From the IMG/VR virus record IMGVR_UViG_2526164664_000023: DNA of 25,327 bases. The stretch is one strand, 5' to 3'. A program made the position numbers. Below are positions 9,001 to 15,000 of this stretch, piece by piece. Within the stretch, counting starts at the first letter, position 1; the number at the start of each line of letters is the position of its first letter. Source of the DNA: a virus. Its lineage: Duplodnaviria > Heunggongvirae > Uroviricota > Caudoviricetes.

Positions 9001-12000
9001 TTATTAGTAGGTTATTTTTGTTGCGAATAATTCGCCTTTTACGATGGCTGTTATGATATTTTTAGCAACATCTTCTGATGCGCCAACCTTGATAAGGTCA
9101 GCAAGTATTTTGTTATTTACTTCTTTCCGGTGAGCTTTATCCTTTGCTCTACGCTCTTCTTCGTCCTTGATTCTTTTTCTTCTGCTATTCTGGCTTGCTC
9201 TTTTGCTTCAGCCTCGCGCAGGATTCGTTCTGCCTCCTCCTGTGCTTTACGGCGTTCTGCTTCAATTGCCGCATGCTTTTCTCTTTCAGCTCGTTCTGCT
9301 GCCTCTTTTGCTTCGCGCTGTGCTCGTTGCTCGGCTTCAATGCGTTCACGCTCTGCACGTTCCTCTGCGGCCTTAGCTTCTGCTTCTCGCCTTGCTGCTG
9401 CTTCAATTTCGGCTTTTGCCTTTGCTTCGGCTTCAGCTCTGGCTTTCTCTTCAGCTTCTCTTTTTAAGCGTTCTTCATGCTCTCGCTTTTCCTGCTCCGC
9501 TTTGAGTCTTGCCTCTTCTCTTTGGCGGTCAAATTCGCGATCCATCAAAATCGCTATTTCATGGTCAGACTCAATTTGCTTTGCGAGAGCTTCAGCTGCT
9601 GCCTTAGCTTCTTCTTCGGCTTTAATCCGCGCCTGTTCTTCCTCATAATCAGTAAGAGGCTGGCGCGCCTTGGCTTTCAGTTCATCAAGGCGATCGCGCA
9701 CTGTCTTGCGGTTAGCATCAATTAGCTTTGGAATTTCCTTCAGTTCAGCAACAAGGTCTTTGCCAAGACCATCGAGATATGTTTTCGTCTGCGCAACTTT
9801 ATACGCCAGATAAGCGATCTCCTTTCTGCCCTTTGCCGTTGTGATATCAGGCACAAAGGACATAACTTCACGTTCAACCTTTTGAAGAATTTCTTCAATC
9901 TGGTCGGCAGACTAAATTACAGTCATTGCATTTGCTTTTTCAATAACAACTAAATCTGTTACTTCACTCATATATCCTCCGTCAAAAAATTGCCCTCACA
10001 CTGGAGGGCAAAGAAGATTTCCAATAATCAGAACAAGTCGGCTCCTGTTTAGTTACGAGCGACATTGCTCCGTGTATTCACTCGTTGGAATGAATACACA
10101 GTGCAGTGTTTATTCGTATGCCTGTCTTTTAACCACATCAGGCTCGGTGGTTCTCGTGTACCCCTACAGCGAGAAATCGGATAAACTCTATTCACCCCTA
10201 CAGAGAGAATGATGGAGATTCACCGATGAGTAACTGGTGGCAGGAACTATTACGTTTCTTCCTGCGTGGTCTTACGCTACAACAGTTAATTCATATGCTT
10301 ATTATTTTAATTGCCTTGATAATAATCACCCCAGCATCAATTAAAGAGTGGGTAGATATAAGGAACCCCGAAATACTTCCAGATCACTGGATGTATTACG
10401 CAATGCTTTTGTGTATCAGTTATGTTCTGAACAGGGGGATGGAGTTTATATTTCTGGCATCTTCAGACAGATATAAAAAATATCTCAGTAAGAGAGATGA
10501 GGCTAAAGTAATTGTGGAGACTGAGCGCCTATTCAATTCTCTGAGTATTCAGGAAAAAGAGGTTTTAGCATTTGCTGTTATGGCAAATAACAAAATCGTA
10601 CTTAAGCACGGCGATCCGGTCGCTTTATCTCTTATGAGAAAAGGCCTTCTCCATCGCTCAGGTGTGACTTACAGCGCGTCAGGTAAAGAGAAATTTGTTA
10701 TACCTGACGTCTGGTTCCATGAGTGTTATATGCGCTTTGCTGGTAAAGCTGATGAGCTAATTTAGTTCCTCTACGGCGGGGGGGATCGTCACCTCGCTGT
10801 CAGTTGTTTTGATTTCCGGTAGCCTGCCGCGTAAATGGCTACGTTTGGAAGACAAGTTGAACCTTCATATTTTCTGGTCAACGTTGTCAGAGTTATAACT
10901 TCTGCTCTCATTGCTGGTTTGCGCTTGCATTGCAAGACCACTCGTGAAGGGGTTGGCCTGTGTAGCTTGTCGGAGCTAATCGCCTCCTGACTTTGCAGGT
11001 TTGCGCGACGAGCTCTACGGCGAGAAGCTGCGGTGCCTTTAAATTCTGTTTTTCTGGACATAGATTCCTCCCGAATAAACTTTGGCGATGCAATCTCGAA
11101 GCTCCTCCTGAGACGGTTACTTCGGCATTGCATCCCACAGCTTATGTGGTTGGGTGATCTGGCTTTTCAGCCACGTAGTCGAGTGTTCGACGTTGTTTAA
11201 AGAGCCTGCCAGTCTGCTCCGTTTGGCTTACAGCGTCCTGCTGATGAGTTGACTTTATCGAAATGATAAACTGATGGCAATAGCAAAATGATAAATTGTT
11301 TGGGTTTTCAAATATCCTGTTGATTATTATGGTTTTTTATTTGATTGCGGGAATTTATCAGAAGGAATGAAGAGACTTGAGGGGGATCAGAATTTCGTGG
11401 TTTAGAAAGTTGTATCTATCAATTTTTCAATAAATACAATTGGTTAAGGTGTTATTAGGTGTGGGGATCGTGAGGCAAAGAAAACCCGGCGCTGAGGCCG
11501 GGTTCTGTCATCTAACTTAAGTATCAAGCCGCTTTTTGTGAATGATTGATGTGAGCTTCAAAGTCGCGGCGTAGATTTTGAACGCGCTCTACACATCCGC
11601 GCATTTCAGCCAAAAGCTTACTAACGGCAGTATAGTCAAACGCTTTAGTCATTTTTTTTCCCCTCGTTTAAATGTAAGGCTCAACATCAAGGGCTGCTAT
11701 TGCTGCGCACAATGCGTCAGGATCGTCAGCATCGATGGCTTGAGCCAGGTCATTAGCCAGTATAAGTAACTTATCGATGACAGCGATTTCGCTGGTCTTA
11801 TCTACACGAAAGTATGGGAGCAGAGCATTACATACGTCTCTGAATGTCCGTAATTCTGCGACAACGTTCGAAAAGGTAGGATCTTTCTTACGAAGATCCA
11901 CCAATGGCGCTACTTTAGCTGTTTTCAGCATTGCACTAATCTCGCCAATCATTGTTCCATGCAGACGATTAAATTCATCAACAGCTCGGTCATGCAAGCT

Positions 12001-15000
12001 CTTGTTGATTGGCAATACGTTTTGGGTCACTAACTATACTCCTTATATAGGTGTTCGCCAACAGATTTTCAATATGACTTGGGCGATTTCTGAACAATAA
12101 GCACGATTTAGCAATGATTAATTGATGTTAAGCACAAATATCTCTACATCGTGCATTTTTAACTATTTATACACATAAAATCTAATAAATGGATATAAAC
12201 CTTATGATGATTTTTCTCAATCGAATTGAATAATGATCTCTATCACATCACCCAAACGTCTCTTCAGGCCACTGGTTACCAGCTATGTGACGATGAAGTC
12301 ACGAACTTTTCAGCCACTCCCTTGCCTCGATGTCATCCAGATGGCGAGATTGCTTCAGAATACCAGCCACATACTCCACCTTTGCTACTTGATGATAAGG
12401 CAACGTTATTGGCCTGTGGTCCTGGTTGATGCTTGTAAATTGGTATTCTCCATCTCTGTCATAGCCAAGAACTTTGATCATGTTGTGTCCTTCAACAGTT
12501 CTGACAAACACCTCATCCCCCGGGAATACTTTGGTGTTAGGCTCAATGAGTACATATTCTCCTGATTTTATTCTGGGCCACATGCTGTCTCCTTTCACAC
12601 GAAGACCAAAGGCATCTGGATCATCGCTATAAATATTGAGCCACCCATCGCGCTCTTCGGTCATCTCGATGGCACCATCAACACCAAGAATTGCCTCACC
12701 AACCACGCGCACTAACCCTTTTCTTACCTGACCGACAAAAGTTAAAGAATCTGAGCATGATGCAATTGGTGTTACATCATGTACCAAATCAAGCCACCCA
12801 TTAGGTAACCCAAGTGCGGCTTCGAATTTTCTTGCTAGTTTATCCCCTATGTTTCGAGTGCTTTTTTCACCGGAGACTTGCGTGAGTTGAGAAGGGCTAA
12901 CTCCAAGCTTATCGGCAAAGCTTGCATTAGTGTTACCCGCGATTTTTTTATGCTCATCTAGCAAAAACGCCAGATTCGATTTGCGAATATCTTTGTTTTC
13001 CATCCCACGATTCTCCCTCTATTTAGCAAATGGATAAATATGCATTTTGATAAATCTTCATTGCGTTTTATTTATCAAAATGGTAAAGTCGCTCTGTGTG
13101 ATAAACGGAGGCACTAATGAGTAATGAACTACTACGCTGGCGAAAAGAGGCTTCTAGTGAGGAATGGAAGCGACTCGCCGCATTAGCGAATACTTCAGTT
13201 GGCTATCTTGATCAGATTGTATATGGGTTTCGAAGAGCTTCCCCAGATAAAGCGAATGCAATCGAAGAAGCCACTCGTAATTTCACGGGTTATAAACCTG
13301 TGAAAAAGGAAAATCTGGTGTTCGTATCGCGTAGAGCATCAGCAGCATAAGTAACCCCGCTCTTTGTAACAACGGACATTCGTCCTACGTCGCTGAAAAG
13401 CGAGTTCCAAGATATCTGACCAACTAAGGCCATATGCGTTTCCACGCATACCTTTCAACTAGCTATTCACTATTGGAAATCTTAAGAAATGGAACAAACA
13501 AGTTACAGCAAACTATCACAGCGTGATGTTGATCGCGCAGAAACAGATTTACTTATCAACCTGTCAACGCTTACCCAGCGCGGTCTGGCAAAGATGATTG
13601 GCTGTCATGAATCGAAGATAAGCAGAACGGACTGGAGATTTATTGCTTCGGTCTTGTGTGCTTTCGGAATGGCATCAGACATCAGTCCGATTAGCAGAGC
13701 TTTTAAGTATGCGCTTGATGGACTCACCAATAAAAACGCCCGGTGTGCAAGACCGAGCGTTCTGAACAAATCCAGATGGAATTCTGAGGGAATTACTGGA
13801 TCAATCCACAGGAGTCATTATGACAAATACAGCAAAAATACTCAACTTCGGCAGAGGTAACTTTGCCGAACAGGAGCGTAATGTGGCAGATCTCGATGAT
13901 GGTTACGCCAGACTATCAAATATGCTGCTTGAGGCCTATTCAGGCGCAGATCTGACCAAGCGACAGTTTAAAGTGCTGCTTGCCATTCTGCGTAAAACCT
14001 ATGGGTGGAATAAACCAATGGACAGAATCACCGATTCTCAACTTAGCGAGATTACAAAGTTACCTGTCAAACGGTGCAATGAAGCCAAGTTAGAACTCGT
14101 CAGAATGAATATTATCAAGCAGCAAGGCGGCATGTTTGGACCAAATAAAAACATCTCAGAATGGTGCATCCCTCAAAACGAGGGAGGTTCCCCTAAAATG
14201 AGGGACATCCCTCAAAACGAGGGAAAATCCCCTAAAACGAGGGATAAAACATCCCTCAAATTAGGGGATTGCTATCCCTCAAAACAGGGGGACACAAAAG
14301 ACACTATTACAAAAGAAAAAGAAAAGATTATTCGTCCGAGAATTCTGGCGAATCCTCTGACCAGCCAGAAAACGATCTTTCTGTGGTTAAACCGGATGCT
14401 GCAATTCAGAGCGGCAGCAAGTGGGGAACAGCAGAAGACCTGACCGCCGCAGAGTGGATGTTTGACATGGTGAAGACCATCGCACCATCAGCCAGAAAAC
14501 CGAATTTTGCAGGGTGGGCTAACGATATCCGCCTGATGCGTGAACGTGACGGACGTAACCACCGCGATATGTGTGTGCTTTTCCGCTGGGCCTGCCAGGA
14601 CAACTTCTGGTCCGGTAACGTGCTGAGTCCGGCCAAACTCCGCGACAAGTGGACCCAGCTCGAAATCAACCGTAACAAGCAACAGGCAGCCGTGACAGCC
14701 AGCAAACCAAAACTCGACCTGACAAACACAGACTGGATTTACGGGGTGGATCTATGAAAAACATCGCCGCACAGATGGTTAACTTTGACCGTGAGCAGAT
14801 GCGTCGGATCGCCAACAACATGCCGGAACAGTACGACGAAAAGCCTCAGGTACAGCAGGTAGCGCAGATCATCAACGGTGTGTTCAGCCAGTTACTGGCA
14901 ACTTTCCCGGCGAGCCTGGCTAACCGTGACCAGAACGAACTGAACGAAATCCGCCGCCAGTGGGTTCTGGCTTTCCGGGAAAACGGGATCACCACAATGG

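What the first reader, a model, noticed from the sequence alone, without database searches (positions are those of the whole stretch)
11252..13116. Shared TGATAAA operator half-site at oL and oR; pL and pR both use -10 TAAAGT
oR contains four copies of a TGATAAA/TTTATCA motif and the candidate oL has two. The candidate pR (TTGCGT-17-TAAAGT) and pL (TTGCCA-17-TAAAGT) have the same -10 hexamer and overlap these repeats. This defines the likely repressor recognition sequence and immunity specificity of the prophage.
Basis: seen in the sequence. Interest (0 to 1): 0.4.

Follow-up and report, generated by a model that had tools for sequence, protein, structure and literature searches.

The report
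Known H-19B-type phage repressor operators
The repeated TGATAAA motif marks the repressor-binding operators on either side of the cI gene of a lambda-like E. coli prophage whose repressor is essentially that of the Shiga-toxin phage H-19B, so the reading is right but the sites are already described.

Summary
oR has three exact TGATAAA/TTTATCA copies plus GGATAAA, which makes four exact GATAAA cores. oL has two exact copies plus a TTTATC. TTGCGT-17-TAAAGT (pR) and TTGCCA-17-TAAAGT (pL) are present and overlap the repeats. Local shuffles give 0.07 expected copies in oR and 0.09 in oL.

The motif is one half of a 17-bp inverted repeat, TTTATC-N5-GATAAA. The window's cI is 233/234 identical to phage H-19B cI, and Cro is 74/77. 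GenBank GQ499358.1 ("immunity region similar to H19-B") annotates OL1-3 and OR0-3 at the homologous positions. A review cites Shi and Friedman 2001 for four operator sites in H-19B OR.

- In 53 loci with the same cI N-terminal domain, substitutions avoid the half-sites.
- Relatives in Citrobacter, Pantoea and Erwinia keep the sites at the same positions.
- Phages sharing only the cI C-terminal domain have different operators and no TGATAAA.

Verdict: a correct rediscovery of a known immunity region, of low interest. One loose end remains. OR2 and OR0 are conserved only as single half-sites, and the annotated OR2 register fits the palindrome poorly (4/12). A register abutting OR3 fits better (8/12).

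The parts
11252..11257 (-). pL -10 hexamer TAAAGT
   Evidence: Promoter scan. The final T is kept (TAAAGT or TAAATT) in relatives from Pantoea and Erwinia and in the 73%-identical viral locus L087. The assignment is inferred; no transcript was mapped here.
11254..11270 (.). OL1, TTTATCGAAATGATAAA, a perfect 6+6 inverted repeat
   Evidence: The only zero-mismatch match to TTTATC-N5-GATAAA in the window. Homologous to 'OL1 repressor binding site' of GQ499358.1. Its half-sites do not vary in same-immunity loci, whereas the central bases do.
11275..11280 (-). pL -35 hexamer TTGCCA
   Evidence: TTG is kept at this position in distant relatives.
11279..11295 (.). OL2, AATAGCAAAATGATAAA, with a strong right half and a weak left half
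   Evidence: Identical to the annotated OL2 of GQ499358.1. Invariant in all same-immunity loci.
11311..11327 (.). OL3 candidate, AATATCCTGTTGATTAT, degenerate (8 of 12)
   Evidence: Homologous to the annotated OL3 AATATCGTATTGATTCT of GQ499358.1. It differs from that site at three positions, and its function is untested here.
12299..13003 (-). cI repressor, 234 aa
   Evidence: 233/234 identical to H-19B cI. Peptidase_S24 domain at residues 103-206.
13022..13038 (.). OR3, TTTAGCAAATGGATAAA
   Evidence: One mismatch to the palindrome. Identical to the annotated OR3. Conserved in distant relatives with a variable central 5 bp.
13048..13055 (+). OR2 core half-site TGATAAAT; the full 17-mer register is uncertain (annotated 13046-62, alternative 13038-54)
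   Evidence: Only this octamer is conserved; its flanks vary. The annotated register scores 4/12 against the palindrome and 13038-54 scores 8/12. The half-site changes to GCTAAA together with the OR1 right half and the oL sites in Pantoea L022-24, and together with the OR1 right half in Citrobacter L004.
13061..13066 (+). pR -35 hexamer TTGCGT
   Evidence: Read from the sequence. TTGC is conserved, and the last two bases vary among same-immunity loci.
13071..13087 (.). OR1, TTTATCAAAATGGTAAA, in the pR spacer and overlapping the -10
   Evidence: One mismatch to the palindrome. Identical to the annotated OR1.
13084..13089 (+). pR -10 hexamer TAAAGT
   Evidence: Invariant in 53 same-immunity loci. 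TAAAGT or TAAACT in distant relatives.
13089..13105 (.). OR0, the fourth oR site, TCGCTCTGTGTGATAAA; only the right half is a good half-site
   Evidence: Homologous to the annotated 'OR0 repressor binding site' TTGTTCTGTGTGATAAA. Its left half varies among same-immunity loci. It is absent from distant relatives.
13117..13350 (+). cro, 77 aa
   Evidence: 74/77 identical to H-19B Cro.

Best explanation
The region is the immunity region of a lambdoid E. coli prophage with H-19B immunity. Dimers of the cI repressor, and of Cro during lytic growth, recognise 17-bp inverted repeats with the consensus TTTATC-N5-GATAAA. OR1 and OL1 lie in the promoter spacers and overlap the TAAAGT -10 hexamers of pR and pL, so bound repressor keeps RNA polymerase off both early promoters. 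OL2 overlaps the pL -35. OR2 lies just upstream of the pR -35. OR3 lies next to the cI start, where it would govern the cI maintenance promoter. OR0 lies just downstream of the likely pR start and adds a fourth site. Shown here: the sequences, their conservation, their link to the cI N-terminal domain, and their identity with annotated sites. Inferred by analogy with lambda and from the cited H-19B work: actual binding, the order in which sites fill, cooperativity and the promoter start points.
For: - **Same repressor as H-19B.** cI is 233/234 identical to H-19B cI and Cro is 74/77. The DNA is about 95% identical to H-19B, BP-4795 and many Stx1a phages.
- **Sites already annotated.** GQ499358.1 annotates OL1-3, OR3, OR2, OR1 and OR0. 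Five of the seven contain the motif in the palindrome register that I derived independently. KU238070 annotates oR1-3. Review PMC8065619 states that H-19B has four operator sites in OR, citing Shi and Friedman 2001.
- **Concentration in the operators.** Of the four window matches to the palindrome with at most one mismatch, three are OL1, OR3 and OR1.
- **Substitutions avoid the half-sites.** In 20 distinct oR sequences from 53 loci, 2 of 36 strong half-site positions vary against 17 of 52 other positions (Fisher p = 0.003). Both half-site variants are singletons.
- **Deep conservation.** Relatives with 55-73% identical cI keep the sites at the same positions with free central bases.
- **Natural control.** Phages with a 94% identical cI C-terminal domain but another N-terminal domain carry unrelated operators and no TGATAAA.
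- **Covariation.** Pantoea relatives L022-24 use GCTAAA at the OR2 half-site, the OR1 right half and the oL sites.
Against: - No binding or transcript data exist for this exact sequence.
- The primary paper could not be read, so site numbering and any footprints rest on GenBank annotations and one review sentence.
- OR2, OR0 and OL3 have at most one good half-site.
- The two GenBank annotations disagree on registers by 2 bp or more.
- The cI N-terminal domain gave no Pfam helix-turn-helix hit at E <= 0.01 and has no solved relative by sequence.
- Two same-immunity loci carry TAAAGC at the proposed pL -10.
Confidence: 0.9

Rival explanations
1. The conserved A/T-rich blocks are promoter elements (-10-like hexamers or UP-like sequences) of pR, pL and pRM rather than repressor contacts. 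Their repetition reflects three closely packed promoters.
For: OR1, OL1 and OR3 each overlap a TAAAGT or TAAATA -10-like hexamer. The region is 30-35% G+C.
Against: The outer halves of the palindromes (TTTATC at 13071-76 and GATAAA at 11265-70) lie in promoter spacers, where sigma-70 makes no base-specific demands, yet they do not vary. The motif changes with the cI N-terminal domain while the flanking sequence stays the same. Inverted-repeat symmetry is not a promoter property.
Confidence: 0.04
2. The sites bind a host factor with a GATAA-type motif, for example Fur, whose box contains GATAAT/ATTATC repeats, and so link prophage control to host physiology.
For: There is a superficial resemblance of GATAAA/TTTATC to Fur-box hexamers (from my own knowledge, not tested with a Fur model).
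Against: The half-sites are arranged TTTATC-N5-GATAAA, the opposite relative order to the Fur 7-1-7 unit GATAAT-N-ATTATC. Heteroimmune phages with the same flanks and the same host lack the motif entirely. The motif co-varies with the repressor's recognition region in Pantoea relatives.
Confidence: 0.02
3. The repeats are a chance accumulation in A/T-rich intergenic DNA.
For: One further exact copy at 11354-60 is unconserved and probably chance. The whole window holds 16 copies.
Against: Local dinucleotide shuffles give 0 of 5000 reaching the oR count and 14 of 5000 reaching the oL count. The sites are conserved across genera.
Confidence: 0.01

Closest known systems
[quoted passage not shown]
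   Same: The repressor is the same (233/234 aa) and Cro is nearly the same. OL2, OR3 and OR1 have identical 17-mers. There are four sites at oR, including one downstream of the pR -10 (OR0). The pR and pL hexamers are the same.
   Different: There are point differences in non-core positions: the OL1 centre (GAAAT against GGAAT), the flanks of the OR2 half-site, the left half of OR0, and OL3. The genes between oL and cI are replaced. H-19B and BP-4795 carry a HigB-like toxin and an HTH gene there, whereas the window has 120-aa and 42-aa ORFs of unknown function.
Bacteriophage lambda OL/OR-cI-cro switch
   Same: cI and cro are divergent. The operators are 17-bp pseudo-palindromes. O1 sites overlap the -10 hexamers of pR and pL. 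The cI C-terminal domain is an S24 self-cleaving peptidase domain. N, nutL and nutR flank the region.
   Different: The half-site sequence is unrelated. There are four sites at oR rather than three. OR2 and OR0 are conserved only as single half-sites. cI has an apparent Shine-Dalgarno leader, whereas lambda's pRM transcript has no leader (my own knowledge).
Phage 933W operators (three sites at oR, two at oL; Tyler et al. 2004, as cited in PMC8065619)
   Same: It is a Stx-phage immunity region with a non-lambda number of operators. The heteroimmune control loci here share a 94% identical cI C-terminal domain with the window's cI.
   Different: Those loci have a different N-terminal domain and unrelated operator sequences with no TGATAAA. 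That they are 933W-type is my recollection, not something tested here.

Membership tests
H-19B immunity group (imm H-19B) | cI repressor, especially its DNA-binding N-terminal domain, identical or nearly identical to H-19B cI | tested here: met
   233/234 identical. The single change, N123K, lies outside the N-terminal domain.
H-19B immunity group (imm H-19B) | Cro of the same type | tested here: met
   74/77 identical.
H-19B immunity group (imm H-19B) | The same operator sequences at oL and oR | tested here: met
   OL2, OR3 and OR1 are identical. All GATAAA/TTTATC cores are identical. Differences are confined to central or weak-half positions.
H-19B immunity group (imm H-19B) | Homoimmunity: a lysogen is immune to H-19B superinfection | not testable with these tools
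   Requires a plating experiment.
Lambdoid cI/Cro bistable switch | Divergent cI and cro separated by a multi-operator oR, with a second operator oL at the N-side promoter | tested here: met
   cI 12299-13003(-), cro 13117-13350(+), N-family ORF 10789-11133(-) (PF25694), cII (PF05269).
Lambdoid cI/Cro bistable switch | Repressor with a LexA-like S24 self-cleavage domain | tested here: met
   PF00717, E = 3.8e-16.
Lambdoid cI/Cro bistable switch | Repressor binds the operators, represses pR and pL, and activates pRM | not testable with these tools
   Inferred from position and from the literature on H-19B. pRM could not be located from the sequence.

The most novel reading that the evidence does not exclude
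OR2, and likewise OR0, may not be a lambda-style 17-bp dyad spaced about 24 bp from its neighbours. It may instead be read as a single GATAAA half-site in the register 13038-13054. That register directly abuts OR3 (centres 16 bp apart, about 1.5 helical turns) and lies 33 bp from OR1. Repressors at OR3 and OR2 would then sit on opposite faces of the DNA or exclude each other. This packing is conserved from E. coli to Pantoea and Erwinia, and it would make the switch geometry differ from the lambda model.
Probability: 0.2. Interest if true: 0.35.

Novelty: already known. Interest (0 to 1): 0.1.

Why it matters
The result identifies the prophage as homoimmune with the Stx1 phage H-19B and places its repressor-binding sites at base resolution. 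This helps with annotation and with predicting superinfection immunity among STEC prophages. The same immunity region is 100% identical in 86 complete E. coli genomes. It adds nothing conceptually new, because the operators, their number and the repressor were described in 2001 and are annotated in GenBank.

Tried and rejected
- **Literature.** The primary paper (PubMed 11532127) and Tyler et al. 2004 (PMC524894) are not held. Searches for 'OR0' and 'four operator' gave only the one review sentence. PMC2903704 mentions ST2-8624 only in its reference list.
- **RNA families.** A scan of the whole window at Rfam gathering thresholds found nothing.
- **Solved structures.** A sequence search with cI gave only spurious pseudoazurin hits.
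- **Extra motif copies.** The exact TTTATCA at 11354-60 was considered as an extra oL site and rejected, because it is not conserved in H-19B-type phages. The one-mismatch palindrome at 3331-47 was not followed up, since about 1.5 matches at two or fewer mismatches are expected by chance.
- **pRM.** I tried to place it from the sequence. TAAATA (13025->13020) would put the annotated OR2 at about -41, as in lambda, but it leaves a very short leader. CATATT and TATTTA further upstream are not consistently conserved. It remains unresolved.
- **More distant cI relatives.** Loci from Photorhabdus, Providencia, Morganella and Escherichia sp. have other N-terminal domains and other operators, so they do not inform this motif.
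Full report
**What is there.** Window 10.8-15.5 kb is a lambdoid early regulatory region.
- An N-family antiterminator ORF lies at 10789-11133(-) (PF25694).
- An A/T-rich gap holds oL and pL at 11250-11330.
- Two small ORFs follow, then cI at 12299-13003(-), 234 aa with a Peptidase_S24 domain.
- A 113-bp gap holds oR. After it come cro at 13117-13350(+), cII (PF05269), O and P.

**Check of the observation.**
- Exact TGATAAA or its complement occurs at 11264, 11289, 11354(-), 13048, 13071(-) and 13099. There are 16 in the window against 5.7 expected.
- oR therefore has three exact 7-mers.
- With the 6-mer core GATAAA/TTTATC there are four exact copies in oR and three in oL.
- Shuffling only the intergenic stretches, which are 30-35% G+C, gives 0.07 expected copies in oR (0 of 5000 shuffles reach 3). 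It gives 0.09 in oL (14 of 5000 reach 2).
- TTGCGT-17-TAAAGT (13061-66 and 13084-89) and, on the minus strand, TTGCCA-17-TAAAGT (11280->11252) are present as stated.

**Anatomy.** The motif is half of a 17-bp inverted repeat, TTTATC-N5-GATAAA.
- OL1 (11254-70, TTTATCGAAATGATAAA) is a perfect match.
- OR3 (13022-38, TTTAGCAAATGGATAAA) and OR1 (13071-87, TTTATCAAAATGGTAAA) have one mismatch each.
- Only one other site in 25 kb has one mismatch or fewer.
- OL2 (11279-95, AATAGCAAAATGATAAA) has a strong right half only.
- OR1 and OL1 sit in the promoter spacers and overlap the -10 hexamers. OL2 overlaps the pL -35.
- A GATAAA at 13049-54 lies 6 bp upstream of the pR -35.
- Another at 13100-05 lies just downstream of the expected pR start and upstream of the cro Shine-Dalgarno sequence.

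**Identity.**
- The DNA is about 95% identical to phage H-19B, BP-4795 and many Stx1a phages.
- cI is 233/234 identical to H-19B cI and Cro is 74/77.
- GenBank GQ499358.1 (phage ST2-8624, "immunity region; similar to bacteriophage H19-B") annotates OL1, OL2, OL3, OR3, OR2, OR1 and OR0. OL1, OL2, OR3, OR1 and OR0 are exactly the 17-mers I had derived, and OL3 is the degenerate AATATC-N5-GATTCT.
- KU238070.1 annotates oR1-3 in slightly shifted registers.
[quoted passage not shown] I could not read the primary paper.

**Comparative evidence.**
- *Same immunity.* I found 53 loci whose cI N-terminal domain is identical to the window's (52 fetched loci plus the window itself), with 20 distinct oR sequences. 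Variable columns fall between the half-sites. Two of 36 strong half-site positions vary, both as singletons, against 17 of 52 other positions (Fisher p = 0.003). oL behaves the same way.
- *Distant relatives.* Loci with cI 55-73% identical come from Citrobacter, Pantoea and Erwinia, plus one viral contig. They keep ATTTATC-N5-GATAAAT at the OR3, OR1, OL1 and OL2 positions, with the central 5 bp free to vary. They also keep the TTG of the -35 and the final T of the -10 of both promoters.
- *Covariation.* Pantoea loci L022-24 have a different recognition-helix sequence (SASQFSQ against SPSQLTQ). They use GCTAAA at the OR2 half-site, the OR1 right half and the oL sites.
- *Natural control.* About 30 loci share a 94% identical cI C-terminal domain but have another N-terminal domain. 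They keep the same nutL-side flank (TCCTGCTGATG) yet have unrelated operators and no TGATAAA.
- The motif therefore follows the DNA-binding domain, as an immunity determinant should.

**Mechanism.** The sequences, their conservation and their link to the cI N-terminal domain are shown. The rest is inferred by analogy with lambda and from the cited H-19B work. cI dimers on OR1 and OL1 would occlude the -10 and spacer of pR and pL. OL2 and OR2 would add cooperative occupancy at or near the -35 hexamers. OR3 would control the cI maintenance promoter. OR0 would add a block just downstream of the pR start. Cro would use the same sites.

**Loose end.**
- OR2 and OR0 are conserved only as single half-sites. 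OR0 is absent from distant relatives.
- The annotated OR2 register (13046-62) matches the palindrome at 4/12 positions. The register 13038-54 (ATATGCATTTTGATAAA) matches at 8/12.
- That alternative register resembles OL2. It is also the register in which the covarying GATAAA/GCTAAA is read as a right half-site. But it abuts OR3, with centres only 16 bp apart.
- I could not place pRM from the sequence. If its -10 is TAAATA (13025->13020), the annotated register would put OR2 near -41, as in lambda. The two lines of evidence point in different directions, and only footprinting can settle this.

**Verdict.** It is a rediscovery of the known H-19B-type immunity region. The same 2.25 kb is 100% identical in 86 complete E. 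coli genomes, for example O103 RM8385.

Noticed in passing
window 13489-13860 (about 13732-13737): cII reads as 123 aa instead of 99. Relative to E. coli O103 RM8385 there is a 1-bp deletion in an A6 run, which frameshifts the C-terminus into the start of O.
   Followed up: yes
window 13820-14757 (about 14316-14320): The replication gene O is split into two overlapping ORFs by a second 1-bp deletion in an A6 run, just after the iteron repeats. Two -1 homopolymer indels within 600 bp suggest either sequencing error or a decaying, replication-defective prophage.
   Followed up: yes
window 11524-12061: Between oL and cI, the position of lambda rexAB, the window carries 120-aa and 42-aa ORFs of unknown function (phrog_13858, phrog_12503). 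They have their own promoter-like site, TTGGCG-17-TATAGT (12061->12033). H-19B and BP-4795 carry a HigB-like toxin and an HTH regulator there instead. The downstream terminator hairpin (about 11480-11505) is shared by both versions.
   Followed up: partly
window 3331-3347: An operator-like palindrome, TTTATCATCTCCATAAA (one mismatch), lies far from the immunity region, inside a 107-aa ORF with no PHROG hit. It is probably chance.
   Followed up: no
L022-L024 (Pantoea), oR upstream of cI at locus position about 2870-3000; oL downstream: A sister repressor lineage uses TTTAGC-N5-GCTAAA operators in the same architecture and has a changed recognition helix (SASQFSQ against SPSQLTQ). This is a natural pair for mapping the specificity determinant.
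   Followed up: partly
window 11160-11205 (-) and 13358-13403 (+): nutL and nutR each show boxA (GCTCTTTAA / CGCTCTTTG), an extra small hairpin, then a boxB with a GAAAA loop (TGGCTGAAAAGCCA / TCGCTGAAAAGCGA). This fits the unusual H-19B nut organisation as I recall it. The sites were read by eye only.
   Followed up: no
window 10226-10765 (+): A SieB-type superinfection-exclusion gene lies between N and the leftward early genes (phrog_1301, E = 1.6e-93).
   Followed up: partly
L084 and one other same-immunity locus, position homologous to window 11252: Two loci carry GCTTTA instead of ACTTTA, which makes the proposed pL -10 TAAAGC and loses the conserved final T.
   Followed up: no
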